Part shown: piece by piece, positions 23,101-48,600 of the stretch
How the letters are laid out: every line of letters starts with the position of its first letter
Position numbering within the stretch: the first letter of the stretch is position 1
NCBI GenBank assembly: GCA_000004985.1
Contig: GG738882.1
Length of the DNA: 64,000 nt
Strand: one strand, 5' to 3'
Source of the DNA: Naegleria gruberi
Lineage: Eukaryota
Program-made: the position numbers and the translations under genes
Notes under the pieces: generated by a model
What the model saw: only the letters and a program-made list of their open reading frames with translations
Databases searched by the model: none
What the model was told of the DNA's origin: nothing

Positions 23101-24039
23101 TTAACATATATTATTATTGTAGCTTTTTGAATGAAGCTCCAAGAATTCTCCAAGAAAATTACTTACCAACAGAGTTTGATATTGTTGCCTATCCAGAAAA
23201 GACTCATTTCCATCCATTGAACATAATTGAAAATGAATTGGCCAGCAGGGAAATGACAGAAGAAGTTAGAAGATCCTCTATCAAGACCACATCTTCACAA
23301 AGCATTAGTGATGACATGTTCACCGAAGACCTTTCACAATACAGAAATAATTACGAAAGTTTGAATATGAGTACTGAAAAGGCGCCTCTCGAATTCATGT
23401 TCAGAAGAACACCGTATACCATCTTCTCAACAAGAACCAGTGTAGATGAGAAGAAGGTCACCTCTGCAATTAAAGAGCTCTCTATCGATGCCATTGTCAT
23501 TACTGTTTCCCTGGAAGATATTGATCAACAAAATAATTCAGTGGTCGGATCAAGTTCAATACCAACTCTAAACTTTTTAAAGAAACAAGTAATTGTCAAT
23601 GGAAAATCAAGTGCATCCATTGTAAACATTTTCAAAATTTTGGAAAAATTATTGATGGCAGAAGAGTTTGCAGACACTCAAATTTGCTTTATTTTCACAC
23701 ATCTCGATATATTTGTAAGTAGATTTAACATTCCTCAATCAAATATTAACAATTTCCATCTGAAACCCTTTTTAACAGAATCAAAAACTTTCTCAAGATC
23801 CATCCCTACTCACCAAGGTTTTCCCTAAATATTCCCCAAGCCCTAAAAAACCACCAATCAAATATTTGGAAGAAACATTTGAACTTTTCAATAGCAAACA
23901 TAAGAGAAGAAGAAGATTCCACTATTCGTTTGTTAATACATTTGATAAGGAAGATGTTAGAAAGTCCTTTAAGAATATTCACGAGGTGGTATACAGTGTT
24001 GAACTCAAGAGAAAATTGGACATGTACAAGATGTTGTAA
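20109..24039 (+). CDS. Kelch-repeat / TPR-like / G-alpha-like multidomain protein, 4 exons (20109..20987, 21068..23073, 23123..23714, 23779..24039), about 1280 aa
   Basis: Three introns inferred from in-frame joins. (1) GTAAGT at 20988 to TTAG at 21067, 80 nt; this restores a kelch blade LNCETWEWSHI that continues into ORF 21290. (2) GTAAGT beginning inside the apparent TAG stop at 23074, through TGTAG at 23122, 49 nt; splicing gives ...[27 protein letters not shown]. (3) GTAAGT at 23715 to TTAACAG at 23778, 64 nt; this joins FIFTHLDIF to NQKLSQDPSLLTKVFPKY. G-alpha homology blocks: FSLLFIGEDKSGLTSYLQQIRTMF ~ [43 protein letters not shown] ~ [33 protein letters not shown]...LTKVFPKY ~ IILFLNKKDLF...LTICYPEY; FHYSFVNTFDKEDV ~ THFTCATDTKNV. 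Kelch motifs: GARAKHTTVSF, HSAVYFEGRMYVFGG, LIHGGKCGG..LGDLWSFD, HAATTL...MLFYGG. Confidence 0.6.
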
Positions 24040-25583: not shown

Positions 25584-28292
25584 ATGAAGAATAATCATCA
25601 TCCTCATCAACATAATAACAACTCATGCAGACACTCAGACATTCCTCGTGTATTGATGGAACATTTCCAAAAGGAGGAATTTGAGTGGAAGCAACAGGTA
25701 AGGCAACTCAATGCCTCCCGAGAAGCTACAACGCTACACCACCTTCCAGACAAGTACTGCCAGATGTCTACTTTCACCCTCAATAATAACGGCTCGTCTA
25801 CTGAATCGGATCTTTTCGAATCACATCATGATGGTCTCAACAACAAGAAACTAAAAAACAATAATAACACTACTTCTGTATCTTCAACATTGGAAGAGCA
25901 GAGAAGAGGTCAACAACAACAATATTCGAGTAATCATTACAATTTCAACAATAACACCTACGCTAATACTTTTGCATCATCTTCCTTTAGCGGTGCAGAA
26001 AGCAATCATTTACTGATCGGTAATAATAACGAGAATACTTTTAACTATTCGAAACCTTTCTACACAACACATTCCATGATGAATGAAAGCGAGTATCTGC
26101 AGGCAACTTCCTCTGCAACTGACTATTCCTATCCAATGTTTCACACTGATGATGAATCCTCTCTCATGTTCGATGACGATAATCATCAAGCAACAACAGA
26201 CTCATCACCTTTTGAAAAACTCATACTCGACGATGATGAATTACTTGACTATGGTGATTGTGATACATATGGAGATCTTGATGAATTTAATAATAACGAT
26301 AAGACTCCAACAATGGAAGATTACATGGACGAATCATCCTTCTTTATTGAACAAACACCTCCTCCACAGAGACCAATTTACCTCTCCTTACAGCCAGTAT
26401 CACCACTCATGTCTGCAACAAGCTCTGAATTGACCAAGCCAAGAAAATCCTCTACAAGTGGTGGAATTAATTCACCTTCATCATCAAGAACGACAAATAA
26501 TTTGAACAACAATACACTTCTGGTGGCATCAGATGAATTGGATGTTTTTACTGGGGATTCACCATCTCTGAACACAGCAACCATTTCGAATGAGAATACT
26601 TGTGTTACAGGTAGTCCAATAGATACATCGAGAAAATCCAAGGTGAGACACGGATCCGTGCCTTCAGAGGAATTCAACAAGTTTCTTCAAATTTCATCTC
26701 CACAACAACAACAACTTTTTCAGGGGGCTTGTTCTCCTGCCAGAGCTTTATCACCAACCACTTCTTCTATTGCTTGTTCTCCTGGCAAGGTATCTTCTCA
26801 TCATTCTAGGAAAATGTCTAATCATGGAATTGGTCATATGAGGAGTAATTCTGGAATTAAAAAACAACCACGAGCCAACAGTTATACAGTTTCATCAATT
26901 CTAGGAGATCCACAACTCAAGCCATTATTTTTCGACTTTCTAAATGAACATCACAATTCGGAGCTAGTTCTCTTCTTACAGGAAGAAGAAGAATTCAGAT
27001 CAGAGTGCCAGAACTGCATTGCTTCAAATATTGGAAAGTTAATGATAGAGTATGAAATCAAAATGGAAAGGATTAAACAAATTTTCGAGACATATATTAA
27101 ACCAGGATCAAATAGCGAGCTTAATTTATCAAACGAAACCAGACTCAAAGTCGAGAATAGAGTCAGTGCTTTATTGATTCCACCAGTGATATCGAGACAT
27201 AAGGGTGTTGGCGATTTACATCTTTCGAGGTGGATTTCTCCAGATACTTTCGAGGCAGCCACAACAGAGGTCAAGATTAGCTTGAAAAATCACATTCTTC
27301 CACTTTTCCTTGAGAGTTCACGATTTGAAAATTATCTTGTGCAGAAACACATTCAAGATAATACAGTTTCTAATTTGAGAGGAAAGAAAATCCAAAGAAT
27401 GCTGGGTTATTACATACCAGAGAGTGCTAAGGATTATTCATTCTATGTTAATGGAACAACTGTTGGACTTGGCAAGCAACAGCAGCAACAACAACAAATG
27501 CAACAACCACAGCATTCACAACATCATCACTATTCTACTATCAATGACCCAACAGCCAAGAAGAGTAGACCTAAGAAATCGTTGGCTGCCCTCTTTGGAA
27601 ATAACCATGCGCCATCCCAAAATCATAATAATCCAACAATGGAGCAACCAGTACTTAATGACACATCTCCAAAGAGTCCATTCAAGAATGAACAACACAA
27701 GAATCAATCATTGAGCAAATTCAAAAATTGGATTTTAGGAAAGAGACATCCTGCAGAAAGCCCAAATCCATCTTCTTCATGGTCAACTCTCTCCAAAAAG
27801 TCTCAACTCACTGTTAATAATGCTTCTAACTCTTCCCCACAACTTGTTGGAACCTCTAGTCATATTAAGATTTCACCTCGAGAAATGGAATCAGATCCAA
27901 ATAAGAAGGTTGCCAATGCATTCTTACCTCTAACAATGTCATCTGGTCAATCCAACAACACAAATACTCCAGAAATCAACTCGCTCATCAATGATGGTAT
28001 TATTTTCATCAAGGTTCATACAAAAAAGAGAGGAAACTGCAAAATTCTTGAAATTAATATCGACAAAATGTCCCTGTTATCAGACCAAGACAAGAAACTT
28101 GCCAATCAACTCAAAAATGTCTTACTAACCCACATTGATGCAGATATTAATCCTTTCGACAAGTATCCTCACCTGAGAGAATTTCTTCAAACAAAAATCT
28201 CTGTTCAATCCCAAAAGAATTGGGAAGAAATCAATGAAGATTGCATCATCAAGGTCAAAAGTCCAGCAACTAGTAACTTTTTCAAACTATAA
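25584..28292 (+). CDS. RGS (regulator of G-protein signalling) domain protein with long N/Q/S-rich low-complexity regions
   Basis: 902-aa ORF. Central RGS domain (about 26920..27350): LKPLFFDFLNEHHNSELVLFLQEEEEFRSE ... IKPGSNSELNLSNETRLKV ... FEAA ... PLFLESSRFENYL. This matches the RGS pattern F..FL..E.S.ENL.FW...E.F ... FL.S..Y..L. Flanked by poly-Q (QQQQQQQMQQPQ) and Asn-rich tracts. Confidence 0.65.
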   Translation: MKNNHHPHQHNNNSCRHSDIPRVLMEHFQKEEFEWKQQVRQLNASREATTLHHLPDKYCQMSTFTLNNNGSSTESDLFESHHDGLNNKKLKNNNNTTSVSSTLEEQRRGQQQQYSSNHYNFNNNTYANTFASSSFSGAESNHLLIGNNNENTFNYSKPFYTTHSMMNESEYLQATSSATDYSYPMFHTDDESSLMFDDDNHQATTDSSPFEKLILDDDELLDYGDCDTYGDLDEFNNNDKTPTMEDYMDESSFFIEQTPPPQRPIYLSLQPVSPLMSATSSELTKPRKSSTSGGINSPSSSRTTNNLNNNTLLVASDELDVFTGDSPSLNTATISNENTCVTGSPIDTSRKSKVRHGSVPSEEFNKFLQISSPQQQQLFQGACSPARALSPTTSSIACSPGKVSSHHSRKMSNHGIGHMRSNSGIKKQPRANSYTVSSILGDPQLKPLFFDFLNEHHNSELVLFLQEEEEFRSECQNCIASNIGKLMIEYEIKMERIKQIFETYIKPGSNSELNLSNETRLKVENRVSALLIPPVISRHKGVGDLHLSRWISPDTFEAATTEVKISLKNHILPLFLESSRFENYLVQKHIQDNTVSNLRGKKIQRMLGYYIPESAKDYSFYVNGTTVGLGKQQQQQQQMQQPQHSQHHHYSTINDPTAKKSRPKKSLAALFGNNHAPSQNHNNPTMEQPVLNDTSPKSPFKNEQHKNQSLSKFKNWILGKRHPAESPNPSSSWSTLSKKSQLTVNNASNSSPQLVGTSSHIKISPREMESDPNKKVANAFLPLTMSSGQSNNTNTPEINSLINDGIIFIKVHTKKRGNCKILEINIDKMSLLSDQDKKLANQLKNVLLTHIDADINPFDKYPHLREFLQTKISVQSQKNWEEINEDCIIKVKSPATSNFFKL

Positions 28293-28597: not shown

Positions 28598-31294
28598 ATG
28601 AGTTCAAATAGAGGAGGTGGAGGTAATAGTAGAGGAGGAGAGAGAGGAGGTGGCACTTATAGAGGTGGCAGTAGAGGAGGTGGAGGTGCTGGTAGGGGAA
28701 GTGGTAGTAGCAGAGCAGTGGTGGATCATCATTCTGGAGGAAGTAGCAGTGGTCAATTCCATTCAAGTAGACCTTCGTCATCATCATCATCAGGTGGAGC
28801 TAGTAGTAGTAGCAGTAGCAGTCGTGGTTCTTATGGTTCAAAGACACCTTCCCATGGTGGTCGTGGAACTGGTTTCAACCAACAGCCTTCTCAACTATCA
28901 TTTGGTAATAGAAAAGCCATTGAGGAAGTTTCCATCAGAACTATCAAGATTGAAGATCTCTCAAATGTTGGCTCTTCGAGTGCACAAACAGAAAGACCAG
29001 CAGAAAGCACTACCTCACGTGCTGTAGTCAACTATTTCCCTGTAAAAGCTCCTGAGGGACCTTTCTATCTCTATGATGTAAAGATTAATCCTGATGTTGA
29101 CAGCAAGTATTTTGCTGGGAACTTAGTCAAACAAGTCATGCCAATCAATGAGATTTATCTTTTTGATGGAACAACAGTTCTCTACACTAAAAATCCACTC
29201 ACCAAGAATAAGGAAACTTTTGAGAAAACTTTAGTTAAGGATAAGAAAGTCTACAAGGTTACAATTAATTTTGCTAGAAGTATAACCTCTAAAGTAATAG
29301 ATGCAACCACTCTCCAATTTATGAATATCATTTTGAGAAAGGCTCAAAACAGCTTGCATTTACAAAGAATTGGCAGACATTACTATAATACTAACGAAAA
29401 AGTCGTTGCCAATATTGAAAATCATCATATTAAGATATTACCTGGTGCATTATCAACAACATTCTTAGGCAGCAAGGGGCTGATGTTGAATGTGGACATG
29501 ATCTACAAAACTTTAAGAACAGACACTGTGTATTCTATGCTTATGGATCTAATGGACAAGTTTGATAGTCATGACAGAATTGCAAATGAATTCAGAAATA
29601 CCATTGTATTATGCACCTACAATCAACGAACTGTACATATTGATGATGTAGATTTTGAAAAGACCCCAAAATCTACATTTGTAAAGAAAACTGGTGAAAA
29701 GATTACATTTGCCAAATATTATCAAGAACAATACAAAATTAAGGTTAAGGATATGAATCAACCATTGTTAAAGCATGTAGATAGAAAAGACCCTCAAAAA
29801 ATTGAATATTATCTACCTGAATTGTGTTTGCTTACTGGATTGACTGATGATATGAGAAAGAATCACCAATTAATGAAGGCTCTCAAGGATGCCACAGGTC
29901 TCACTCCAAATCAAAGAATTAGACAAATTGTACACTCACAACAAGAATGTCTTCAAAATGAGGAATATACCGACCAATTAGGTCTTTGGGGATTGGAAAT
30001 TAATGATAAGTTATTGGAGGTGGAGACCACTGTTCTTCCATGCGAGAAAGTGGAATTTGGTGATAATTTGCAAAAAACTGCCACTGGAGCATCTTGGGAG
30101 GTAAAGAGAGAAAAACTCTTCAAACCAGTTAAGATCGACAATTGGTGTGTTTTCCATCCAAATGGAACAAAACAAGACACTACAAACTTTATCAAATCAT
30201 TGAATGATGTTTCCAAGCCAATAGGAATGATTTTAGGAACTCCTAAACTAGTTGAACTTAGTGGAAACAATGAGGAAACATATGCATCTGAAATTGAAGA
30301 ATATATGAGCGGTAATAAGCCTTCTTTTGCTCTGGTGGTTTTATTTAATGATCAAAAGCAAAGATATTCGAGAGTCAAGGAGGTATTGTGCAATCAAGTT
30401 GGTATAATTAGCCAATGTGTTAAATTGAGTACCATTACTAACGAAAAGGGATTAGCATCTAAGGCAACCAAGGTAATAGTGCAAATTTGTTCTAAAATGG
30501 GAGGTGCACCATGGACAGTTCCTCTTGCTTTTCCAAACAAGGAACCAACTATGATTATTGGAATGGATGTATACCACTCAGGAGAAATTTACAAAAGAAA
30601 AAAGGCTAGTGTAGCTGGATTTGTAGCAAGTATTGATGCAAAAATTTCTACATACTTTACAAAGTGTATAATTCAAGAAGCTGGAAAGGAAATTGTAGAT
30701 GAGTTGGAAGAATGTATGACTGCTGCCCTCAACAAATTCAAGGAAAAGAATAAGATATTACCAAAACATGTTATTTTCTATAGAGATGGTGTTGGAGAAG
30801 GCCAGAAAGAGGCTGTATTGGAGAGGGAAGTAATGGCTTGTAAGAAAGCTATTATGAATATTGCTCCAAGTTGCAAACTCAATTATATTGTAGTTTCCAA
30901 GAGAATTAATACTAGAATATTTGCTCAAACAGATCCAACCAAGCCAACTGATTTCACCAATCCACAACCTGGAACAGTTTTGGATTATGGAGTTACCAGT
31001 CAAAGAGAAGATCCTTTGGCCATTGAATTTTATTTGGTTGCTCAAAAGGTTGATAATGGTCAAGGAACAGCTACTCCAACCAAATACCACTCCATCTTTA
31101 ACGAAAGCTCTCTGTCTAAACAATATTTGGAGACACTTTCATTCAGACTTTGCCACAATTATTATAATTGGTTTGGAACTATCAGAGTGCCATCTCCATG
31201 TATGTATGCACACAAGATTGCTTCCTTAGTTGGACAATACACCAAATCAGCAGACTTTAAAGATGTGCTTAACGACAAACTCTTCTACTTGTAA
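28598..31294 (+). CDS. Argonaute/Piwi family protein (Piwi-clade-like), RGG-repeat N-terminus, PAZ-MID-PIWI, intact DDH
   Basis: 898-aa intronless ORF. N-terminus GGGGNSRGGERGGGTYRGGSRGGGGAGRG is RG/RGG-rich. PIWI domain catalytic residues in canonical contexts: IGMDVYH (first Asp), VIFYRDGVGEGQ (second Asp), PCMYAHKIA (His). Ends ...NDKLFYL, like Piwi proteins (LFYL) rather than AGO-clade proteins (MYFA). Confidence 0.9.
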   Translation: MSSNRGGGGNSRGGERGGGTYRGGSRGGGGAGRGSGSSRAVVDHHSGGSSSGQFHSSRPSSSSSSGGASSSSSSSRGSYGSKTPSHGGRGTGFNQQPSQLSFGNRKAIEEVSIRTIKIEDLSNVGSSSAQTERPAESTTSRAVVNYFPVKAPEGPFYLYDVKINPDVDSKYFAGNLVKQVMPINEIYLFDGTTVLYTKNPLTKNKETFEKTLVKDKKVYKVTINFARSITSKVIDATTLQFMNIILRKAQNSLHLQRIGRHYYNTNEKVVANIENHHIKILPGALSTTFLGSKGLMLNVDMIYKTLRTDTVYSMLMDLMDKFDSHDRIANEFRNTIVLCTYNQRTVHIDDVDFEKTPKSTFVKKTGEKITFAKYYQEQYKIKVKDMNQPLLKHVDRKDPQKIEYYLPELCLLTGLTDDMRKNHQLMKALKDATGLTPNQRIRQIVHSQQECLQNEEYTDQLGLWGLEINDKLLEVETTVLPCEKVEFGDNLQKTATGASWEVKREKLFKPVKIDNWCVFHPNGTKQDTTNFIKSLNDVSKPIGMILGTPKLVELSGNNEETYASEIEEYMSGNKPSFALVVLFNDQKQRYSRVKEVLCNQVGIISQCVKLSTITNEKGLASKATKVIVQICSKMGGAPWTVPLAFPNKEPTMIIGMDVYHSGEIYKRKKASVAGFVASIDAKISTYFTKCIIQEAGKEIVDELEECMTAALNKFKEKNKILPKHVIFYRDGVGEGQKEAVLEREVMACKKAIMNIAPSCKLNYIVVSKRINTRIFAQTDPTKPTDFTNPQPGTVLDYGVTSQREDPLAIEFYLVAQKVDNGQGTATPTKYHSIFNESSLSKQYLETLSFRLCHNYYNWFGTIRVPSPCMYAHKIASLVGQYTKSADFKDVLNDKLFYL

Positions 31295-34011: not shown

Positions 34012-35127
34012 TTGCGAAAAGGGTTTAGCGGGATAATCGGAACTCAAACGAAAAAAATGGAAAAACACTCAACACAACATTTATCGGAATCATTGGAAAC
34101 AAGGAAGAAACAAGATTTTAATGATGATACAATTTATGAAATTTTGTCTTTTTTTAATGATTTTAAATTTATTGTAATGAATTGTGCATTGGTGTCCAAG
34201 CAGTGGTTGAATGTTGTTTTATCATCATGTCGTCATCTTTCATTGGAATGTGGAAGAAAAGTCGAACTGAATGGCCAATTTTTACAAAATATTGCAACTC
34301 TAGAGATTAATACCACTTTTGATAATTACAAAAAACTTGTCTTGATGAAATCACTAACTGAACTTATTGGTTGTAACAATAATATTGGTAATGAAGGAGC
34401 TAAATATATTAGCAAATTGAAACAATTAACTCATCTTTATATTCTTAACAACGAAATTGATGATGAAGGAGCAAAATATATAAGTGAATTGAACCAATTG
34501 GTCAGTCTTGATATTTCTTACAATAATATTGGTGTTGAAGGTGCTAAATACATCAGTGAATTGAAACAATTGACCAATCTTGATATCTCTGTCAATCACA
34601 TTGGTGCTGAAGGAGCTCAACACATAGCAGAAATGAATCAATTAACCATTCTTAATATTTCCACCAATAATATTGGCTATGAAGGAGCTAAATATATTGG
34701 CAAATTGAAACAATTGACATGTCTTACTATTTTTAACAACAATATTGATGTTGAAGGAGCTAAATACATTAGTGAAATGAAACAATTGACCGATCTTAAT
34801 ATTTCTTACAATAATATTGATGTTGAAGGAGCTAAATACATTAGCGAATTGAAACAATTGACCGATCTCGATATTTCTATCAATCAAATTGGTGCTAAAG
34901 GAGTTCAATACATAGCGGAAATGAATCAATTAACCATTCTTTCTGCTTCTCACAATAATATTGGTGATGAAGGAGCTAAATACATTAGTGAAATGAAACA
35001 ATTGACCAATCTTGATATTTCCAACAATAGCATTAGCAATGAAGGAGTAAAATGTATAGAGGAAATGAAACACTTAACAGTTCTAAATATACGTCAGCCA
35101 GTCATGTTTAGTTTTAAAATAGCCTGA
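34012..35127 (+). CDS. F-box-like / leucine-rich repeat (RNI-type) protein; likely true start at Met 34057
   Basis: N-terminus DDTIYEILSFFNDFKFIVMNCALVSKQWLNVV is F-box-like. It is followed by about 11 tandem 24-aa LRRs of consensus L(T/V)xLxIxxNNIGxEGAKYISE(L/M)KQ. Confidence 0.7.
   Translation: MRKGFSGIIGTQTKKMEKHSTQHLSESLETRKKQDFNDDTIYEILSFFNDFKFIVMNCALVSKQWLNVVLSSCRHLSLECGRKVELNGQFLQNIATLEINTTFDNYKKLVLMKSLTELIGCNNNIGNEGAKYISKLKQLTHLYILNNEIDDEGAKYISELNQLVSLDISYNNIGVEGAKYISELKQLTNLDISVNHIGAEGAQHIAEMNQLTILNISTNNIGYEGAKYIGKLKQLTCLTIFNNNIDVEGAKYISEMKQLTDLNISYNNIDVEGAKYISELKQLTDLDISINQIGAKGVQYIAEMNQLTILSASHNNIGDEGAKYISEMKQLTNLDISNNSISNEGVKCIEEMKHLTVLNIRQPVMFSFKIA
34380..35095 (+). repeat. Tandem 72-bp coding repeats (LRR units) with high nucleotide identity
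   Basis: Adjacent units are near-identical at the DNA level. Example: gaaggagctaaatacattagtgaaatgaaacaattgaccgatcttaatatttcttacaataatattgatgtt vs gaaggagctaaatacattagcgaattgaaacaattgaccgatctcgatatttctatcaatcaaattggtgct. The minus-strand ORFs 34426..34641 and 34642..34929 are antisense artifacts of this repeat. Confidence 0.7.
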
Positions 35128-35522: not shown

Positions 35523-38500
35523 ATGACACGACTCATCCATCAACCTGCTCTGACATGGAGGTTCCAACATCTCCTTCTCCTTTTGTTGTTGCTCAGCTTC
35601 ATTCTACTAGCACATCAGCAAGCAGAAGAAGAATTTCTTGATATTTTCCTTGAATATAGAAACGGAAAGGATTCTCCATCATGTTCTTCATTGCTTCATC
35701 CATGTAGAAGTATTGATTATGCTCTCGATTTATTATCATCATCAAATAATACCAATATTCGAATTAATTTATTGGATGATTATGTTCCTTGTGATTGGAA
35801 ATTTAAAAATTCAAATATTACAAAATTGTTAATATCTTCATCGAATAAGAGAAGTTTTAGTTGTTCTATTGGAGTAGAGGCGACGATTGTGCCATTTGTC
35901 AGATTTCAAAATTTGAATTTGAGGCTTTCAGGAGTTTTTAAAGGAAGTGAATTAGAGGTTGTCGATTGTTTGCTTTATTATTTTTATGCTATATATAATG
36001 GTAGTTTGACTCTGGATAATGTTACTGTTGGAAGTGAATTTATATTGAATGCTTTGCAACAGTCAACTGTATTGACTAGTTCAGAAACTATTGAAAAATG
36101 GGGAACAAAGATACATATTAATTCTGGTGCTATTGAAAAAAGAGAGGGTAAGATTTTGATTAGGAATTCTAGATTTATGGGAGTGGCTATGAGTGCACTT
36201 TACTATTGGGATGGTAATTTGCAAATTGAGAATTGTTCATTTGATTATTCTTTAATTCAATTCGAGTCTGGCCAAATCTATGCAACAGGAAATAATGACC
36301 TTGGAAGACCTGATTTTGTAGTTAGTAGATCTAATTTCTCAAAATCATCTTTTCAATTCGTTGAAGCCAAAAGTGTTACCATTTCGAATAGTCTTTTCAC
36401 CAACAATCTTCCAACTCATATTGGAAAGGTATTTGCAACCTTTAACGCTAAAACAGAATATCCTGCCCTGTATTTATCATCTCTATCTATTCTCAATGTA
36501 AAGATTGATGAAAGCAAATTTACAGGATGTGACATTGTTGGAGCTTTATATTTGGAAGGTGTAGGAATTTATGCAAATATTCAAAATACAATATTTAGTG
36601 GAAACTCAAACAGAAGGGGAGGATCTGCAATAACTGTAAAAGATATTTACAAGTTACATGTTCGTGCAACATTATTCGAAAACAATAATCAGTTATTCGA
36701 ATCGAACAATCTAAAACCAGATGAAGGTGTGGGTGGTGGTTCTATTTTTCAATATCAATCCATGCTTCAGGTTGTTCGGTGCTATTTTTTTAATAATTCA
36801 GCATTAATAGGTGGTGCTATTTTTTCTCAATACGCAAAACAATTTCAATCTTCAAGCAATGTGAGTATTACCAAGTTTTAATTGAAAATTCTAATGCCCA
36901 AAGATGTTTGAAAATAATACAGCTGTTTATGGAGGTGCCTATGCTGCCATTGATTCATTATATACAACAAATATAAAGCTGGAATATTCTTATTTTAATT
37001 GGAATAAGGCCAGCAAATATGGTGGTGCGATTTTCACACTGAAATCTTCACTTTTTTTAGGGCTAGAAAGTTCAGTTTCTGAAAATTATGCTTCCATATT
37101 GGGAGGTGGATTATATACTATTGGAACTAGATCTACAACAACAGGCAATGCCTACTCGAATAACTATTGTGGAAATGGAACACTTTCAAATTATGCATCC
37201 TTTCCAGAGTTTATTTCTTTAACAATTCCAGAAAAACAATTGAATTACACTAATCATATGGGAAATACTAGTATTCCACAATTCGAAATATCATTCGGTG
37301 AGAAAGTTACCCTAAATATTGATATATTTGATCAAATAATTGATCCAACTGTCAATTCATTGACAGAATATGATATTGAAGTCTTTGTCTCAAATAGTAA
37401 CCATGTAGTAGAGTTTCAGAAAATTTCTTCCAATGTTTTGAATGGAATTCTATATTCCAGATCTGAAAAGGAACTATCTGATAGAAATTCCACTTTAACC
37501 TTTACGATCAAAACAACATTATTTACTAAAGAAAGTTATTCTTCAAGTATTTCCATTCCAATTAGAGCAACTCGGTGTAGACCTTGGTTTAGTTTGCAAC
37601 GTGAACAAAAGATTGTAAAAGGAGATTTTGCATATTCATGCCAATTTAACACTCCTCTTATTATTCCATTTATATTTATTGCTTTCTTTATCATTAGTTG
37701 TTTGGCTTGCATTGTAATCACATTTGGTTGTGTTAAATTTCAAGGAATGAGGAGTAAGATTAAAATTCTCCATAAGAAAGAACAAGCAGAAGTGGAATTA
37801 ACTCAAAAATTGTTAGATTTGCAATCTCTGTATGCTTCAGAATTGGAGAGTAAACACTCAATCAAGAATTGGTTAATCAAGCTTGAAGATATTAAGGTTA
37901 TAAAGAAAATTGGAGAAGGAGGCATGGGTGTTGTCTATTTAGCATAGTAAGTTTTAGTATTTCATTTAAAGAGTGATTTCTGACATATCAAAGTTGGAAG
38001 AATGTTGAAGTTGCTTTGAAGAGTATCAAAATAGACGATGATGAAATGGATACTACTGAATTTGAACATGAATCTTCAATGCTTTCATCAATGAGACATC
38101 CAAATATTGTAAACTTTTATGGAGTTGTTCTTTCTGAACAATCCAAATTTATGGTAACTGAATATATGAATGGAGGTTGTTTGGAAAAGTTGATATACGA
38201 ATGTAAAATGAAGAAGAAGCATCTCACTTTGAAACAAAAAATTTCAATTCTTATTGGAATTTCAAATGGAATGAGTTATTTACATGGAGGAAAGGATAAT
38301 TGTATGATTATTCATAGGTGAGTTATTGAAAATGTAAATTATACTAATAGAAGTGATTCAGAGATTTAAAACCTGGAAATATTTTACTTTCTAATGATTT
38401 ATCACCAAAAGTTTGCGATTTTGGATTATCAAAACTTTCCAATGAGAGTTCAAACACTACCAAAACAGGACACGTTGGCACATTGCTTTTCATGAGTCCA

Positions 38501-38992
38501 GAAATTCTATTAGGTAAACATTACAATGAAAAATCAGATGTCTATAGTTTTGCAATCATCATGTGGCAATTAATGTTTGATGAGAATTTATTATTCCAAC
38601 ACAATTATGGAACTAATCAAAAGTTTTCCACAATCATGTCAAAACAGGAAATTGACACATTTGCTCAACTTGCCAATCAGACTTCTCTCCTACTAGTTCC
38701 AAAACTAATATCTGAAGGATTACGTTTGCCTCTTCCTACATTGCCAATTAATTCTCATTCACAAATAATGAAAATGTGGATTAGAGAATATTTCGTTATG
38801 GATGATTTGAAATATTCGAATCAAAATATGAGAATGAGTATTGCACAAGTCGATCCATTTGATAAGTATTTAACAGCTCTTAATTCAGTATTTTCATTGA
38901 TAAGCTCTTCGTGGCGTGAAGATTTTGAAAAAAGACCTTCATTTACAAATCTTGCTGAAGAATTATTAGAGATTAGAAATAAATTAGATTAA
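35523..38992 (+). CDS. Receptor-like transmembrane protein kinase with Pmp-type (FxxN/GGAI) beta-helix ectodomain, 4 exons (35523..36860, 36904..37946, 37994..38317, 38362..38992), about 1111 aa
   Basis: Signal peptide HLLLLLLLLSFILLAHQQA. Ectodomain has paired FxxN...GGA[ILV] motifs: FFNNSALIGGAIFSQ, FENNTAVYGGAYAAI, FNWNKASKYGGAIFTL, ILGGGLYTI, GGSAITV. TM helix IIPFIFIAFFIISCLACIVITFGCV. Kinase subdomains are split by introns: GEGGMGVVYLA / intron GTAAGT 37947..37993 (47 nt) / Y-WKNVEVALKS (VAIK-like Lys) ... IIH / intron GTGAGT 38318..38361 (44 nt, contains TACTAAT) / RDLKPGNILL ... DFGLSK ... GTLLFMSPE. First intron GTGAGT 36861..36903 (43 nt). All joins are in frame. Confidence 0.7.
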
Positions 38993-39312: not shown

Positions 39313-39384
39313 CTCCCGTGCCGGGAATTGAACCCGGATCTCCTGGGTGAGAGCCAGGTATCTTAGCCATTGGACCACACGGGA
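39313..39384 (-). tRNA. tRNA-Glu: tRNA-Glu (anticodon CUC)
   Basis: The reverse complement gives TCCCGTG T GGTCCAATGGCTAAGATA CCTGG CTCTCAC CCAGG AGATCCGGGTTCAATTCCCGGCACGGGA G. The 7-bp acceptor stem TCCCGTG pairs with CACGGGA. Anticodon stem CCTGG/CCAGG with loop CTCTCAC (anticodon CTC). T-arm CCGGG TTCAATT CCCGG. 72 nt. Confidence 0.8.
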
Positions 39385-42600: not shown

Positions 42601-45600
42601 TGTAACTTCAAATTTGACTGTCTTGACAGTTTGCTCTTGAGAGAATGAGCTCTTTACTGTAACTTGAACCAAATAAGAACCAACACTAAGAGTTTCTGCT
42701 GTGAATGAAACACCAGAGCTAGTAACTGAAGCGAGGAGATTATCAACCTTTTCATCATCATCTGGGGTTGGAGCTTCAATGTTTGTCCAAGAGAAGAGAA
42801 GCTTTCTTCTATCCAAAGATACAGAACCAGATGCATCCAAATAGATACTACCACAAGCCTTTGAGATGGATGCCTTGTCAGTAGTCAATACAGCAGCAGG
42901 AGCAATACTTTGATATTCCTTCTTATTAACAAGAACATCTTCTGTTTCTTCACTATCAAGATAACTTCTGAACTTTAAGGTATCTCCAATATTAATTGTA
43001 GCCATAGAACCGAGGACAATTTGGAATACATTCTTTTCGTTAAAGATACAAACAGGATTGGATCCCAATGAATCAACATTGGCAATAACACTAGAACACT
43101 TGATTCTCTTCTTGATTGGTGTGAAAATTGTACCAACAATAGAGTCACCCTTTTCAGTGAAACCAAATGTTGTTTCATCAACCTTATAATCACACTTATC
43201 ACCGTACCAACCTGGTAAACAAGATTCACAGCTGGCACCAATTGAATTACCTTGACATGAGCATGTACCATCCTTATTACAAGTACCCTTTGAATTACAA
43301 TTAACTGAAGCAGAACAAGCAATTTGACAATTATCACCAACATAACCATCCTTACAAGTATTACAGAATTCTCCTACCCAATTGCTACCAGCACTACAGA
43401 CACACTTGAATTCAGAATTACAAGTACCATGACTATTACAAGTAAATTCATCAGAACATGTTCTTTCTAAACATCCTTCACCAGTGTATGCAGGAGTACA
43501 AATTGAACAATACTTTTGAGGGTCATAATTTCCACTACATGAACAAACACCGGATGAAATACATTTACCCTTAGAAGAACAAACAAATGAAGTGTTGGAA
43601 CGGTCAATACCATCACACTTAAAGTTTTGACAACTTGATCCATCATAACCATCATTACATTTACAAACTGGAACACCATTTTCAGCAACACAACTACCTC
43701 TACCACCACAAACACTCTTATCAGTTGCGGTAATACCATTACAAATTGCAATATCACATGTTGGACCAGTAAATCCATTCTTACATTTATCACAATAAGT
43801 ACCAGCAAAATTACCCAAACAAGAACAAGTATTTGGTGAAACACATTGACCACGGAATGAACAGCCACCTTCAGTTTCAGTCTTACCATTACAAGTTGGT
43901 GTAGAACAGTCATAACCTGAATAACCATTTTGACATTTACACAAGTTAGGAGAATCACAGGTACCCTTTGATGAACAAGCATCAGAAGCAGTACTTTCCT
44001 TTCCGTAACAGATTGGAGATTGACAATAACTTCCTGTATAACCTTGCTTACATGAACAAGTATCTTGATCAACACATGAACCCTTACCAGAACAAACTCC
44101 AGTTGCAGAGTATTCCTTTCCAAAACATGTAGTATTTGGTGGTAAATAACTGCCATAGTAACAATTTGAGGTTGGCAATGTGGAACAATCAGTTGTGAAC
44201 AAGTCAGGATGAGTAACTTCATTGTTGAGAATAATAGAGCAAACACCTGAACACCATTGCTTTTCTTCTGGAACACCCAAAGCTGAAGGATTACATGGAG
44301 TGAATGATTGATAGCACAAGAATTTCTTAATGGCTGCTTTACAATCGTCTCCACATTCAAGACCTCTACTCTCAACTTGTTTCAATACTTCAGAGTAGTT
44401 AGTACTGGTAGTTTGATCCAATTTCAACAAATTAGCAACAATCATGGTCTTGGCTTCAACGGCATTAGTGGCACCTACTGCAAAATTAGTATTCTTAATA
44501 CTGTACTTGACATGAGCCTTACAGAATGGAACGGATACAGATGGAGCAGAAATACAAGCTGGAGTGAGTGTGTAAATATTACATTCATCACCATAGTATT
44601 CTGGAGGACAAACACGCTTACATTTACCACTTGTCATTGAATAACCAGAAATACAAGATGAACATGGTTGACTAGTATTAGTAGTGAGATAGCCAGTGTT
44701 ACAGATACAAGTTGTAGTTGATGATGTAGTATCAACATATTGACATACACCTTGTCCACAACCATTCTTACAAACTGGATCAGTTCTTACACAGGTACCA
44801 AACTTGTTGACATAACCTGCTGATGTAGAACAAGAGCAACCAGTGGTTGCCTTGGAGAAACCTAACAATGAATTACAAACACAAACACCTGCCTTGGAAA
44901 GATAACCTTGAGTGGTATCACAATAGCATGATCCTTCATTGTCTGGCAAGTAACCCAAATCAGCATTACAGACACAAGCGTTTGAAACATTGACCAAACC
45001 AACTGGACAAGCAGTACATGGATTTGTACTGTCAACAGTGATAAACTTATTTCTACATTCACAATATCCAATAGTGGTATTAGTCTTGAAGAAACAATCA
45101 CCATTTGATCCACAATTCAAATCACACTTGACAAGAGGAGTAATACATTGACCATCCTTTAGAGTTAATCCTTCTTTACAGACACATCCTCCGGAAACTT
45201 CATCAGAAACAAATCCAAGTGAGCTATCACAGACACATTTTCCATCAGAGAGAACAAATCCAGATTTACACTTTTGACAATTTGAGCCAGCAAAGTTATT
45301 GAAACAATTACAGAGTTGGTTACCCTTAGCGTCCTTAGTACATTCACCATTAGCACCACAATTCAAAACGCATGGTTTAACTTCACAGAGTGAACCGCTA
45401 TAATTATCAGTACAATTACAATAGGCAGTTCCTGTTGTGTTGACACAAGTACCATGTTGACAATCGAGAGTACATGGAGCAATGGTACATTGAGTTCCCT
45501 TGAATCCTTGATAACAAGTGCAAGTATCAATTCCACTACAGCTTCCCATTCCTGAACAAACTGAAACATTATTCATTGAAATTCCGTAGCAGGTANNNNN

Positions 45601-48600
45601 NNNNNNNNNNNNNNNNNNNNNNNNNNNNNNNNNNNNNNNNNNNNNNNNNNNNNNNNNNNNNNNNNNNNNNNNNNNNNNNNNNNNNNNNNNNNNNNNNNNN
45701 NNNNNNNNNNNNNNNNNNNNNNNNNNNNNNNNNNNNNNNNNNNNNNNNNNNNNNNNNNNNNNNNNNNNNNNNNNNNNNNNNNNNNNNNNNNNNNNNNNNN
45801 NNNNNNNNNNNNNNNNNNNNNNNNNNNNNNNNNNNNNNNNNNNNNNNNNNNNNNNNNNNNNNNNNNNNNNNNNNNNNNNNNNNNNNNNNNNNNNNNNNNN
45901 NNNNNNNNNNNNNNNNNNNNNNNNNNNNNNNNNNNNNNNNNNNNNNNNNNNNNNNNNNNNNNNNNNNNNNNNNNNNNNNNNNNNNNNNNNNNNNNNNNNN
46001 NNNNNNNNNNNNNNNNNNNNNNNNNNNNNNNNNNNNNNNNNNNNNNNNNNNNNNNNNNNNNNNNNNNNNNNNNNNNNNNNNNNNNNNNNNNNNNNNNNNN
46101 NNNNNNNNNNNNNNNNNNNNNNNNNNNNNNNNNNNNNNNNNNNNNNNNNNNNNNNNNNNNNNNNNNNNNNNNNNNNNNNNNNNNNNNNNNNNNNNNNNNN
46201 NNNNNNNNNNNNNNNNNNNNNNNNNNNNNNNNNNNNNNNNNNNNNNNNNNNNNNNNNNNNNNNNNNNNNNNNNNNNNNNNNNNNNNNNNNNNNNNNNNNN
46301 NNNNNNNNNNNNNNNNNNNNNNNNNNNNNNNNNNNNNNNNNNNNNNNNNNNNNNNNNNNNNNNNNNNNNNNNNNNNNNNNNNNNNNNNNNNNNNNNNNNN
46401 NNNNNNNNNNNNNNNNNNNNNNNNNNNNNNNNNNNNNNNNNNNNNNNNNNNNNNNNNNNNNNNNNNNNNNNNNNNNNNNNNNNNNNNNNNNNNNNNNNNN
46501 NNNNNNNNNNNNNNNNNNNNNNNNNNNNNNNNNNNNNNNNNNNNNNNNNNNNNNNNNNNNNNNNNNNNNNNNNNNNNNNNNNNNNNNNNNNNNNNNNNNN
46601 NNNNNNNNNNNNNNNNNNNNNNNNNNNNNNNNNNNNNNNNNTTTGACAAGTACAATTATTTGGGGATGAGCAAAAACCTTTTCCTGAACAAACATTTCGA
46701 TCATTGTAGAGAGAAATTGAACAGTTGTGGAATTGACAATTCTCACCATAATATCCATCTTGACATGTACAATTATTTGGAAGTGCACATAAACCATGAC
46801 CACTACAAACCAATGAAGAAGTTGATGGAATAGAGGAACAGTTAAATAATTTACAAGTTTCTCCATAATAGTCCAATTGACATTCACACTTATTTGGTTG
46901 AGAACATTTACCATTACCAGAACAAGCTGATGAATCATCATAACGTACAGATGAACAATTATACAATTCACAATTATTTCCATAATAGCCTGCATTACAT
47001 TTACAAGTATCTAAATCAACACATGAACCATGGCTGGAACAAACATCTCTTGAATCAGCATAGGTGTTATCACAACTTGGAATTTCACAATTATTTCCCT
47101 TAAATCCACCGTTACACTCACAAACATCAATATCAGTACATTTACCATTACCACTACAAACCATAGTAGAATTTGATGGAACAGATTTACAATTATACAC
47201 TTCACATGACTTTCCATAATAACCACCCTCACAAGAACATTGATTTGGAGCAATACAAGGACCTCTTGATGAACATACAGAATTTTCATTCTTGTAAGTG
47301 CCATAACAATCAAATTGAGAACAATCCTTGCCATAGTATCCTTCTTTACATGAACATTGATCTGGAGCAATGCAGCTTCCCAAACCAGAACATACAAGTT
47401 TGTCATCTGAAACAATGCCGAAACACTTTGGTTTTTCACAAGCAGTACCAGAGTAGATTGCTTCAAAGGTAGAATTTCCAGATTGGAAGCAAACCTTTCC
47501 AGCATAATTGAACAATGCTAATACACCATCATTTTCAAGAACCAAAGTAAATGGATGACTAATTCCAGAGTCAGAACATGTTACAAATTTGTTAGGAGAG
47601 TATCTAACATCAGATCCATCTTTTGGTGATTCACCAATGAACAATAATTGACCAAGAGCTGAGACTTCAATACGAACATTATTAGCCTCAACATTCCATT
47701 CACTAACAACTTCTCCAGTTGAAACCTTCTTAATCTTGATGTAGGTTAATTCAACAAGGAGTACATATTGTCCATTATTAGAAACCAATGAAGAATTTCC
47801 ATTCACAGCCACAACATTCAAAGCACTTGAAATGAATGAATTGCTTGAATTGAAACCACCACAAGAACAAGTACTTGGTGAAACGCAGAAACCTTGTCCA
47901 GAGCAAACTTGGGCATCATTATTGAAAACGCCAGAACATGTAAAGACTGCACAGGATTCACCTTCAAAACCAGCTTTACAGGAACAATTGTTATGGGAAA
48001 GACACTTGCCATTTCCGCTACATGCAGAATTATCGAGTGAATTGACATTGAAACAGTCGAACTTTTCACATTGTTCACCATATTCATTGTTCAAACATTT
48101 ACAACTGTTCGGAGCTGTACAAACACCTTTACCTGAAGTACAAGCTTTGGAATCATCAAAGGAAAGACCGAAACATTCGTATTTTTCACATTTAACACCA
48201 TAATATCCTTCAGGGCAAGAACAATTATCTGGTGAAATACATGAACCAACTCTGGAGCATGGTGATTCACTGACAGAAATATTGTAACAATAGTAATTTT
48301 CACAACGATCTCCAGAATATCCTGGTTGACAAAGACACGAGTTAGGACTATCGCACACTCCATGGCCTGAACAAACAGTGCTATTGGAGCTTGAAAGAGC
48401 GTAACAATCATGGAATTGGCATTCAGGTCCATAATATCCGTCTAAACATTCACATTTTCCAGGTTGAGTACAGTTACCATTTCTAGAACAAGCATTGACA
48501 TCACCAGCAGCAAAGTTGTAACATTGTGGAATATTACAATTCGATCCACTATAATGCAAAGAGTCAGTTGAGTTGAATTCTACACTGGCAAAACAAACTG

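What the first reader, a model, noticed from the sequence alone, without database searches (positions are those of the whole stretch)
35523..38992. Transmembrane kinase whose ectodomain carries Chlamydia-Pmp-type FxxN/GGAI repeat pairs
The 4-exon gene encodes a signal peptide, about 750 aa of predicted right-handed beta-helix with at least 4 FxxN...GGA[ILV] pairs (the diagnostic tandem motif of polymorphic membrane protein repeats), one TM and a complete protein kinase domain (GxGxxG, VALK, HRDLKPGN, DFG, SPE). Coupling a Pmp-like adhesin or sensor fold to an intracellular kinase is an unusual receptor design. Pmp-like repeats in eukaryotes are mostly reported as surface proteins without catalytic domains.
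Basis: partly seen in the sequence, partly recalled or inferred. Interest (0 to 1): 0.55.

Follow-up and report, generated by a model that had tools for sequence, protein, structure and literature searches.

The report
Naegleria receptor kinase with Pmp-like ectodomain
This is a real four-exon gene of the amoeba Naegleria gruberi that joins a bacterial-adhesin-like beta-helix outside the cell to a protein kinase inside it; the design is uncharacterised and apparently undescribed in print, but it is not unique, because relatives exist in other Naegleria and in protosteliid amoebae.

Summary
The window is Naegleria gruberi NEG-M DNA. Positions 35523..38992 (+) encode a 1111-aa protein from four exons. 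The three GT..AG introns (43, 47 and 44 nt) are confirmed by comparison: an intronless relative and an N. lovaniensis protein align straight across all three junctions.

The protein has these parts:
- a signal peptide;
- a predicted right-handed beta-helix of about 490 aa, with 4 strict and 2 degenerate FxxN...GGA[ILVFY] pairs (0 of 5000 shuffles reach 4);
- a beta-rich stalk of about 170 aa;
- one transmembrane helix (696-722);
- a strongly conserved juxtamembrane helix;
- a complete TKL-like Ser/Thr kinase with a C-lobe insert of about 100 aa.

Exon 2 alone carries Pmp repeats, the membrane helix and the kinase glycine loop, so the fusion does not depend on splicing.

Three caveats apply. 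Pfam Chlam_PMP is below threshold in this protein (11.2 vs 20.6 bits), although three relatives pass. The helix is shorter than the 750 aa claimed. The architecture recurs in at least two N. gruberi loci, N. lovaniensis, metagenomic relatives, Planoprotostelium and Protostelium.

The likely function is a ligand-sensing or adhesion receptor kinase; this is inferred, not shown. The locus appears to be missing from the deposited N. gruberi protein set. Interest is moderate.

The parts
35523..36860 (+). Exon 1 (aa 1-446): signal peptide and most of the beta-helix
   Evidence: ORF and splice donor GTGAGT. It is 98% identical to the metagenome ORF P0001. The only indel against strain contig L001 is 3 nt, in the Leu run.
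36861..36903 (+). Intron 1, 43 nt, GT..AG
   Evidence: The junction SSSN|MFENN aligns with the continuous SVDD-VFYFN of P0046. It is identical in L001.
36904..37946 (+). Exon 2 (aa 447-794): last Pmp rungs, stalk, transmembrane helix, juxtamembrane helix and kinase glycine loop in one ORF
   Evidence: This exon alone links the ectodomain to the kinase.
37947..37993 (+). Intron 2, 47 nt, GT..AG (phase 2, inside a Tyr codon)
   Evidence: YLA|YWKNV aligns with YQARWKNV and YLAKWNHV. Paralog models P0044 and P0047 stop at this same site.
37994..38317 (+). Exon 3: kinase N-lobe through HR
38318..38361 (+). Intron 3, 44 nt, GT..AG, splitting HR|D
   Evidence: IIHR|DLKPGN is continuous in P0046 and P0048.
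38362..38992 (+). Exon 4: catalytic loop to the stop codon TAA
35523..35621 (+). Signal peptide (aa 1-33; Arg13, then LLLLLLLLSFILLA)
   Evidence: Hydropathy peak. AF2 predicts a helix at 9-31. Equivalent hydrophobic N-termini occur in P0043 and P0048. No SignalP run was possible.
35622..37125 (+). Predicted right-handed parallel beta-helix (aa 34-520; spans intron 1)
36594..37116 (+). Pmp-type repeat segment (aa 358-517): six FxxN...GG[AGS]x rungs
   Evidence: 0 of 5000 shuffles. This is the most confident part of the AF2 model (block pLDDT 78-97 except one at 62). The best Pfam Chlam_PMP stretch is 420-436.
37126..37650 (+). Membrane-proximal beta-rich stalk (aa 521-695), no Pfam match
37651..37731 (+). 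Single transmembrane helix (aa 696-722, TPLIIPFIFIAFFIISCLACIVITFGCV)
   Evidence: Kyte-Doolittle maximum 2.99. AF2 predicts a helix.
37732..37890 (+). Conserved juxtamembrane helix (aa 723-775, ...KKEQAEVELTQKLLDLQSLYASELESKHSIKNWLIKLED)
   Evidence: 57-85% identity across the family, against 21-36% in the helix. The same motif occurs in P0044, P0046, P0047 and P0048. AF2 makes it continuous with the transmembrane helix, with block pLDDT about 74-92 over the part of the helix up to about aa 756.
37891..38968 (+). Protein kinase domain (aa 776-1104), TKL-like Ser/Thr type; spans introns 2 and 3
   Evidence: Pfam 1.2e-51 and 1.1e-50. Best PDB match is CTR1 3ppz at 8.4e-39.
38582..38881 (+). C-lobe insert of about 100 aa between subdomains X and XI (aa 976-1075)
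   Evidence: There is a gap in the alignment to CTR1 (query 210-313). Pfam PK_Tyr_Ser-Thr is split into 2 stretches. The insert is shared with P0046, P0048 and P0084.

Best explanation
The locus is one gene for a type I single-pass receptor-like Ser/Thr kinase of Naegleria gruberi.

Shown by sequence and comparison: after signal-peptide removal, the cell surface would carry a right-handed beta-helix of about 490 aa. Its C-terminal six rungs carry the FxxN / GGA(I,L,V)-type motifs of polymorphic-membrane-protein repeats. The helix sits on a beta-rich stalk of about 170 aa. A single transmembrane helix runs on into a highly conserved juxtamembrane helix. This leads to a catalytically complete TKL-like kinase with a family-specific C-lobe insert.

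Inferred mechanism: the beta-helix binds an extracellular ligand, most plausibly a polysaccharide or a cell or prey surface, as beta-helix adhesins and Pmp repeats do. Ligand-driven clustering or a change in dimer geometry would pass through the rigid transmembrane-juxtamembrane helix. That would allow trans-autophosphorylation and signalling to the cytoplasm, for example to control adhesion, motility or feeding.

The protein belongs to a small Naegleria family in which the ectodomain evolves fast and the cytoplasmic part slowly.
For: Organism: six window ORFs are exact matches to N. gruberi NEG-M proteins.

Gene model. Junction continuity against the intronless P0046 and against N. lovaniensis P0048. 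Exon 2 alone contains Pmp rungs, the transmembrane helix and the glycine loop.

Coding constraint against the strain contig L001: 19 differences in 396 nt of 5' flank versus 16 in 2895 nt of exons, and the only exon indel is in frame.

Kinase: complete and TKL-like.

Pmp relationship: motif statistics. Of the 25 distant homologues, 23 carry PF02415 and the other 2 carry PF13229. Exhaustive phmmer hits to strong Chlam_PMP proteins P0050 and P0051. Family members P0045, P0047 and P0048 exceed the Pfam cutoff.

Receptor-like evolution: all 13 between-strain substitutions (8 nonsynonymous, 5 synonymous) fall in the ectodomain, which makes up 72% of the aligned coding sequence. By my own calculation the chance of that is 0.72^13, about 0.014. 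Across the family the ectodomain is 21-36% identical, against 57-85% in the juxtamembrane helix and 61-66% in the kinase core.

Adhesive role of Pmp repeats: reported for Chlamydia and for Trichomonas Pmp-like proteins (PMC6701047, PMC10715098).
Against: There is no transcript, protein, localisation, ligand or kinase-activity evidence.

Pfam Chlam_PMP and TIGR01376 are below threshold on this protein itself.

AF2 can over-predict beta-solenoids for repeat sequences (bioRxiv 10.1101/2024.10.30.621056). The N-terminal helix rungs have only moderate pLDDT, and residues 171-200 and 300-310 are low.

The stalk fold is unresolved.

The signal peptide was judged from hydropathy only.

No deposited N. 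gruberi protein matching this locus turned up, so the original annotators had no supporting model here.
Confidence: 0.72

Rival explanations
1. Gene-model artefact: the ectodomain ORF and the kinase ORFs are separate neighbouring genes, or a decaying pseudogene, that only look like one gene when hypothetical introns are removed.
For: No transcript data are available. The deposited N. gruberi annotation splits the paralog into two models, EFC44993 and EFC44994. It seems to lack this locus entirely.
Against: Exon 2 is a single ORF running from the Pmp rungs through the transmembrane helix into the kinase glycine loop. P0046 carries the full architecture in one ORF without introns, and P0048 (N. 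lovaniensis) is annotated full length. Both align without gaps at all three junctions. All catalytic motifs are intact. Exons differ about 9-fold less from the strain contig than the 5' flank does, and the single exon indel is in frame. The paralog models break exactly at the conserved intron-2 site, as expected from an annotation error.
Confidence: 0.04
2. The ectodomain is an enzyme rather than a binding module: a membrane-anchored glycoside hydrolase or polysaccharide lyase (pectin-lyase-fold) whose activity, or whose product, is coupled to the kinase.
Confidence: 0.1
3. Non-signalling adhesin: the protein works like trichomonad Pmp-like proteins as a sticky surface or endocytic receptor, and the kinase domain is regulatory baggage or a pseudokinase scaffold.
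For: Trichomonad Pmp-like proteins increase adhesion and cycle through endocytic compartments (PMC6701047). The C-lobe carries an unusual insert of about 100 aa.
Against: Every residue needed for catalysis is present: the glycine loop, VALK Lys803, the alphaC Glu, HRD, DFG and SPE. The kinase core is the most conserved part of the family (61-66%). It shows no substitutions between the strains. That argues for selection on the enzyme.
Confidence: 0.1

Closest known systems
Uncharacterised Naegleria Pmp-repeat receptor-like kinases: N. lovaniensis C9374_006686 (KAG2379569; P0048); the N. gruberi paralog EFC44993+EFC44994 (P0044, P0087); metagenome ORFs P0046 and P0047
   Same: The order of parts is the same: signal peptide, beta-helix with Pmp rungs, stalk, transmembrane helix, the KNWLIK juxtamembrane helix, and an HRDLKPxN kinase with the same C-lobe insert. 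Intron positions 1 and 2 are shared. Identity is 35-45% overall and 50-52% in the kinase.
   Different: The ectodomains have diverged strongly (21-36% in the N-terminal helix). P0046 has no introns. Chlam_PMP scores vary around the Pfam cutoff: 11.2 here, 19.2 in P0046, and 24-32 in P0045, P0047 and P0048. None of these proteins has been studied.
Protosteliid (Amoebozoa) Pmp-repeat receptor kinases: Planoprotostelium fungivorum PROFUN_10621 (P0029); Protostelium nocturnum EP01117_P005145 and P011690 (P0028, P0027)
   Same: A signal peptide, a long Pmp-repeat beta-helix, a single transmembrane helix and a C-terminal kinase. P0028 and P0029 pass Pfam thresholds for both Chlam_PMP and kinase.
   Different: They have many more and more canonical repeats (ectodomains of 1000-1500 aa). 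Their kinases are of the HRDL(A/S)(A/V)RN type with much higher PK_Tyr_Ser-Thr scores (215-268 bits). They lack both the C-lobe insert and the KNWLIK juxtamembrane motif. Kinase identity to ours (37-38% over 205 aa) is no higher than to generic TKL kinases. Ectodomain similarity is no higher than to bacterial Pmp proteins. The architecture may therefore have been assembled independently; this is an inference.
Chlamydial polymorphic membrane proteins (Pmp autotransporters)
   Same: Alternating GGA(I,L,V) and FxxN tetrapeptides, one pair per rung of a right-handed beta-helix exposed on the cell surface (PMC10715098, PMC11166332).
   Different: Chlamydial Pmps are type V autotransporters with a C-terminal beta-barrel (PF03797) in a bacterial outer membrane. 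Here there is no barrel. The anchor is a eukaryotic transmembrane helix followed by a kinase. There are only about 6 rungs with motifs, and the Pfam score is below the cutoff.
Trichomonas vaginalis Pmp-like surface proteins (e.g. TVAG_212570)
   Same: Eukaryotic type I membrane proteins with Pmp-type repeats in the ectodomain and a single transmembrane domain. An adhesion role was shown by over-expression (PMC6701047).
   Different: Their cytoplasmic part is a short tail with NPx[YF] endocytic motifs and no catalytic domain (the word 'kinase' occurs 0 times in PMC6701047). Here the tail is a kinase module of about 390 aa.
Protist and plant single-pass receptor-like kinases (Entamoeba TMKs, oomycete and plant LRR-RLKs; Raf/CTR1-like TKL kinases)
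   Same: The topology is ectodomain, transmembrane helix, then Ser/Thr/Tyr-superfamily kinase. The kinase is closest to TKL members: CTR1 8.4e-39, MLK1 and TAK1, and among named sequence hits the plant RLKs Xa21 and HERK1. Lineage-specific ectodomain swapping is the rule in protist TMKs, and about 40% of their non-kinase domains lack a Pfam annotation (PMC10463195).
   Different: The ectodomain is a Pmp-type beta-helix rather than LRR, malectin, CXXC-rich or EGF modules. PMC10463195 mentions neither Naegleria nor Pmp or beta-helix ectodomains.

Membership tests
Pmp-repeat proteins (Pfam PF02415 Chlam_PMP / TIGR01376) | Repeated paired FxxN and GGA(I/L/V) tetrapeptides at regular spacing | tested here: met
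   4 strict and 2 degenerate pairs at 358-517, spaced 26-34 aa; 0 of 5000 shuffles reach 4.
Pmp-repeat proteins (Pfam PF02415 Chlam_PMP / TIGR01376) | Score above the curated profile cutoff | tested here: not met
   PF02415 scores 11.2 bits against a cutoff of 20.6 (E=0.53). TIGR01376 scores 11.5 against 15. Relatives P0045 (32.2), P0047 (24.4) and P0048 (26.0) pass; P0046 (19.2) just fails.
Pmp-repeat proteins (Pfam PF02415 Chlam_PMP / TIGR01376) | Significant sequence homology to bona fide PF02415 proteins | tested here: met
   Of 25 distant hits (E 1.6e-10 to 1e-3), 23 carry PF02415 and the other 2 carry PF13229. Exhaustive phmmer of exon 1 hits P0050 (Chlam_PMP 120 bits) at 1.8e-8 and P0051 (103 bits) at 3.2e-8.
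Pmp-repeat proteins (Pfam PF02415 Chlam_PMP / TIGR01376) | Repeats form the rungs of a right-handed beta-helix | tested here: met
Chlamydial Pmp autotransporters (type V secretion) | C-terminal autotransporter beta-barrel (PF03797) and the Pmp middle domain | tested here: not met
   No such Pfam hit at E<=1. The C-terminus is a transmembrane helix plus kinase. The protein is not a member of this family; it shares only the repeat module.
Eukaryotic protein kinase superfamily, TKL-like receptor kinases | Complete catalytic core (glycine loop, VAIK Lys, alphaC Glu, HRD, DFG, APE, subdomain XI Arg) | tested here: met
   Pfam 1.2e-51 and 1.1e-50. Motifs are located. HRDLKPGN is of the Ser/Thr type.
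Eukaryotic protein kinase superfamily, TKL-like receptor kinases | Closest relatives are TKL-group kinases | tested here: inconclusive
   The best PDB hits are CTR1, MLK1 (MAP3K9) and TAK1, but Tec and Src tyrosine kinases and EGFR score similarly. No kinome-wide phylogeny was made.
Eukaryotic protein kinase superfamily, TKL-like receptor kinases | Type I topology: cleavable signal peptide, one transmembrane helix, cytoplasmic kinase | tested here: met
   There are exactly two hydrophobic peaks (9-35 and 696-722). There are 12 N-x-S/T sequons in the ectodomain against 3 in the cytoplasmic part. No dedicated signal-peptide predictor was available.
Eukaryotic protein kinase superfamily, TKL-like receptor kinases | Ligand-regulated phosphotransfer activity | not testable with these tools
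   This needs biochemistry.
Trichomonad Pmp-like surface proteins | Short cytoplasmic tail with NPx[YF] or acidic endocytic motifs and no enzymatic domain | tested here: not met
   The cytoplasmic part is 389 aa and contains a kinase domain. For the trichomonad family see PMC6701047.

The most novel reading that the evidence does not exclude
Pmp-type beta-helix receptor kinases may be a recurrent, independently assembled sensor class of phagotrophic amoebae. In this reading Heterolobosea use a Ser/Thr TKL kinase, and Protosteliida use a Tyr-kinase-like one. The ectodomain would have been captured from bacterial or archaeal Pmp-like adhesins. It would recognise prey or biofilm surface glycans. 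It would diversify quickly while a rigid transmembrane-juxtamembrane helix and the kinase stay fixed. That would make this family a microbial-pattern receptor system analogous to plant RLK immunity or feeding receptors.
Probability: 0.2. Interest if true: 0.65.

Novelty: new variant of a known kind. Interest (0 to 1): 0.4.

Why it matters
Receptor kinases of free-living protists are almost unexplored. A recent cross-kingdom survey found about 40% of protist transmembrane-kinase ectodomains without any annotation, and it did not cover Naegleria (PMC10463195).

This locus gives a concrete, well-supported example in which a prokaryote-type adhesin fold is wired directly to a eukaryotic kinase. 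The papers I could search describe Pmp-like proteins in eukaryotes only as trichomonad adhesins without enzymatic tails.

The finding has three practical uses. It offers candidates for how a bacterivorous amoeba, and by extension its pathogenic relative N. fowleri, senses surfaces or prey. It flags an annotation gap and a split gene model (EFC44993/EFC44994) in the reference N. gruberi genome. It also provides a natural pair, the Naegleria and protosteliid versions, for asking whether the architecture arose by convergence.

It does not overturn any principle, because domain shuffling onto kinases is common.

Tried and rejected
I used the exon-1 ORF instead.
- I looked for the reference annotation of the locus and found nothing. 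The exact look-up of the full spliced protein failed. Six alternative sequences for the locus (the two exon ORFs and four N-terminally shortened or unspliced models) also failed. The look-up of encoding contigs with the neighbouring argonaute found no record. The best N. gruberi hit to exon 4 is a 74%-identical paralog fragment, EFC35430.
- The ectodomain searched against PDB sequences gave no hit even at E<=10.
- NCBIfam gave only a sub-threshold POMP_repeat match.
- The AFDB fold library was unavailable.
- Literature searches for Pmp, Chlam_PMP or PF02415 together with kinases or Naegleria found no description of this architecture. The supplements of PMC10463195 are not held.
- I considered and rejected three ideas. 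It is not a chlamydial-type autotransporter, because there is no barrel. It is not a tyrosine kinase, because the HRDLKPGN motif is of the Ser/Thr type. It is not an Entamoeba-type TMK, because there is no CXXC-rich ectodomain and only 9 Cys in 627 aa.
Full report
**Origin of the window.** Six long ORFs of the window are exact matches to deposited proteins of Naegleria gruberi strain NEG-M on a 381,539-bp scaffold. They include RNA polymerase II largest subunit EFC41982 at 12650-17599, argonaute EFC41986 at 28598-31291 and deoxyhypusine hydroxylase EFC42053. The base composition of 30-38% GC, apart from one block that contains an assembly gap, and the dense, intron-poor genes fit this origin.

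**Gene model.**
They join in frame to a 1111-aa product.
- The three introns are 43, 47 and 44 nt. They begin GTGAGT, GTAAGT and GTGAGT, and all end in AG.
- I had no transcript data, so I tested the model by comparison.
- Exon 2 is by itself one ORF. It contains two Pmp-type motif pairs, the stalk, the transmembrane helix, the juxtamembrane segment and the kinase glycine loop GEGGMG. The link between ectodomain and kinase therefore needs no splicing.
- A metagenomic relative, P0046 (1039 aa), encodes the complete architecture in one uninterrupted ORF. N. lovaniensis KAG2379569 (P0048, 1214 aa) is annotated full length.
- Both align without gaps across all three junctions. SSSN|MFENNTAVYGGA aligns with SVDDVFYFNTAKYGGA. 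YLA|YWKNVEVALK aligns with YQARWKNVYVALK. IIHR|DLKPGN aligns with IIHRDLKPGN.
- A metagenome contig, L001, is 98.95% identical to the window from position 35127 onward. It differs at 19 positions in 396 nt of 5' flank but at only 16 in 2895 nt of exons. The single exon indel is 3 nt in the signal-peptide Leu run, and introns 1 and 3 are identical.
- I conclude that the gene model is correct. I give the 'two separate genes' alternative about 4%.

**Anatomy.**
- Hydropathy shows exactly two hydrophobic segments. One is an N-terminal signal: Arg13, then LLLLLLLLSFILLA, then polar HQQAEEE. The other is a transmembrane helix at 696-722.
- The ectodomain (34-695) has 12 N-glycosylation sequons and 9 cysteines.
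- An AF2 model of residues 1-446 was built from a 30-sequence alignment. It has pLDDT 73.4 and pTM 0.75 and consists of short strands in three-strand rungs. The most confident region is 321-446.
- The motif-bearing rungs start at 358, 392, 422, 448, 477 and 504. Their sequences are FSGNSNRRGGSA, FESNNLKPDEGVGGGSI, FFNNSALIGGAI, FENNTAVYGGAY, FNWNKASKYGGAI and VSENYASILGGGL. Four satisfy a strict pattern that never occurs four times in 5000 shuffles.
- In the model the GGxx and FxxN motifs sit on successive strands of each rung. This matches descriptions of chlamydial Pmps (PMC11166332, PMC10715098).
- AF2 makes the transmembrane helix continuous with a juxtamembrane helix up to about residue 762.
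- That juxtamembrane segment reads KKEQAEVELTQKLLDLQSLYASELESKHSIKNWLIKLED. It is the best conserved non-catalytic part of the family, at 57-85% identity against 21-36% for the N-terminal helix.

**Kinase.**
- Pfam PK_Tyr_Ser-Thr (1.2e-51) and Pkinase (1.1e-50) cover 776-1100.
- All catalytic signatures are present: GEGGMG 783-788, VALK 800-803, alphaC Glu in EFEHES, HRDLKPGN 901-908, DFG 921-923, SPE 947-949, DVYSFA 961-966 and RPSF 1093-1096.
- HRDLKPGN is the Ser/Thr form of the catalytic loop.
- The nearest solved structures are CTR1 (8.4e-39), then EGFR, Tec-family kinases, MLK1 and TAK1. The nearest named sequences are plant RLKs. I call it TKL-like without a formal phylogeny.
- About 100 residues (976-1075) are inserted between subdomains X and XI. 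The insert is shared with P0046, P0048 and the N. gruberi fragment EFC35430.

**Is the ectodomain really Pmp-like?**
- The direct profile test fails. Chlam_PMP scores 11.2 bits against a cutoff of 20.6, and TIGR01376 scores 11.5 against 15.
- The indirect evidence is consistent. Of the 25 more distant homologues of the ectodomain (E 1.6e-10 to 1e-3), 23 carry PF02415 and the other 2 carry PF13229.
- An exhaustive phmmer search of exon 1 against 1.84 billion representatives gave only 41 hits. They include strong Chlam_PMP proteins (P0050 at 120 bits, P0051 at 103 bits). The family members P0045, P0047 and P0048 also pass the Pfam cutoff.
- I therefore regard the C-terminal third of the helix as a degenerate Pmp-repeat array.
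- The protein is not a chlamydial-type Pmp, because it has no autotransporter barrel.

**Family and distribution.**
- The exhaustive search shows a small family. Its first member is the strain variant P0001.
- The second is a N. gruberi paralog that is annotated as two adjacent models. EFC44993 carries an unrelated N-terminal extension and breaks off at the conserved intron-2 site. EFC44994 is a partial kinase.
- The other members are N. lovaniensis C9374_006686 and several metagenome ORFs (P0043, P0045, P0046, P0047).
- Further N. gruberi kinase fragments are 73-74% identical in the kinase: EFC35430 and EFC49505.
- Outside Heterolobosea the same architecture exists in Planoprotostelium fungivorum PROFUN_10621 and in two Protostelium nocturnum transcripts. 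P0028 and P0029 pass Pfam thresholds for both domains.
- Those proteins have far more canonical repeats and HRDL(A/S)(A/V)RN-type kinases, and they lack the insert and the juxtamembrane motif. They are no closer to the Naegleria proteins than generic TKL kinases or bacterial Pmp proteins are. Independent assembly is therefore plausible but unproven.

**Annotation status.** No deposited N. gruberi protein matching this locus appeared in any search or in seven exact look-ups of the spliced product and its alternatives. The locus seems to be missing from the reference protein set. I could not inspect the GenBank record itself.

**Function (inferred).**
- The topology is that of a type I receptor kinase.
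- Beta-helices of this kind usually bind or cut polysaccharides, or act as adhesins.
- Pmp repeats mediate adhesion in Chlamydia and in Trichomonas (PMC6701047).
- All 13 substitutions between the two strains lie in the ectodomain, which is 72% of the aligned coding sequence. Eight are nonsynonymous and five synonymous, and there are none in about 810 nt of cytoplasmic sequence. By my own calculation the chance of that is 0.72^13, about 0.014.
- Across the family the ectodomain is the fast-evolving part.
- This pattern is typical of receptors that track variable ligands.
- My working model has two steps. The ligand, most likely a glycan or a surface, binds the helix. Receptor clustering is then transmitted through the rigid transmembrane-juxtamembrane helix, which activates the kinase by trans-phosphorylation.
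- The rival ideas of an enzymatic ectodomain or a non-signalling adhesin cannot be excluded. I give each about 10%.

**Comparison with the literature.**
- The papers I could search describe eukaryotic Pmp-like proteins only in trichomonads, with short endocytic tails and no kinase (PMC6701047, PMC10715098, PMC11166332).
- The cross-kingdom survey of transmembrane kinases mentions neither Naegleria nor Pmp or beta-helix ectodomains (PMC10463195).
- The architecture is therefore present in databases but, as far as I could search, undescribed.
- Ectodomain swapping on protist kinases is common, so I rate this as a new variant of a known kind with moderate interest (0.4).

Noticed in passing
window 34012-35127 (+); L001 1-1033: An LRR_6-rich protein gene (Pfam 133.7 bits) lies directly upstream of the target. 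It is absent from the 98.95%-identical metagenome contig L001. There, homology begins at about 35127, where the LRR ORF ends, and a different 283-aa minus-strand gene lies upstream. This looks like a presence/absence or rearrangement polymorphism between Naegleria strains.
   Followed up: partly
window 21290-23828 (+): The ORF at 21290-23074 has N-terminal Kelch repeats (95 bits) and a C-terminal partial G-protein alpha match (PF00503, 39.3 bits, below the cutoff of 48.8). The overlapping ORF 22932-23828 may continue it. This could be a Kelch-G-alpha fusion. An RGS-domain protein (25584-28292) and argonaute (28598-31294) follow.
   Followed up: no
window 39313-39384 (-): tRNA-Glu (anticodon CTC) lies about 320 nt downstream of the target's stop codon, on the opposite strand.
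   Followed up: no
window 39619-60040 (-): Very large minus-strand ORFs (2458 and 4823 aa as listed) encode a cysteine-rich, EGF-like repeat surface protein with a C-terminal transmembrane segment. They are interrupted by assembly gaps (N runs at 45596-46641 and 50237-50497).
   Followed up: no
N. gruberi scaffold of 820,293 bp (not in the window): EFC44993 and EFC44994: The closest N. gruberi paralog is annotated as two adjacent gene models. EFC44993 fuses about 290 aa of unrelated N-terminal sequence to the ectodomain, transmembrane helix and glycine loop, and it breaks off at the conserved intron-2 site. EFC44994 is a partial kinase. This is probably one mis-split gene.
   Followed up: partly
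window 37732-37890 (+), aa 723-775: The juxtamembrane motif KE[KQ]AE..L..KL[LI].LQ.LY...ELE.K.S.KNWLIK.ED is nearly invariant in five family members, although the ectodomains are only 21-36% identical. AF2 models its N-terminal part (to about aa 762) as a continuation of the transmembrane helix. It is a possible dimerisation or regulatory element with no Pfam match.
   Followed up: partly
window 1570-5124 (+): This is a ubiquitin-activating enzyme E1 (ThiF, UBA_E1_SCCH, FCCH, 4HB and UFD domains). The ORF as read is not an exact match to any deposited protein, so the reference model probably differs in its start or in introns.
   Followed up: no
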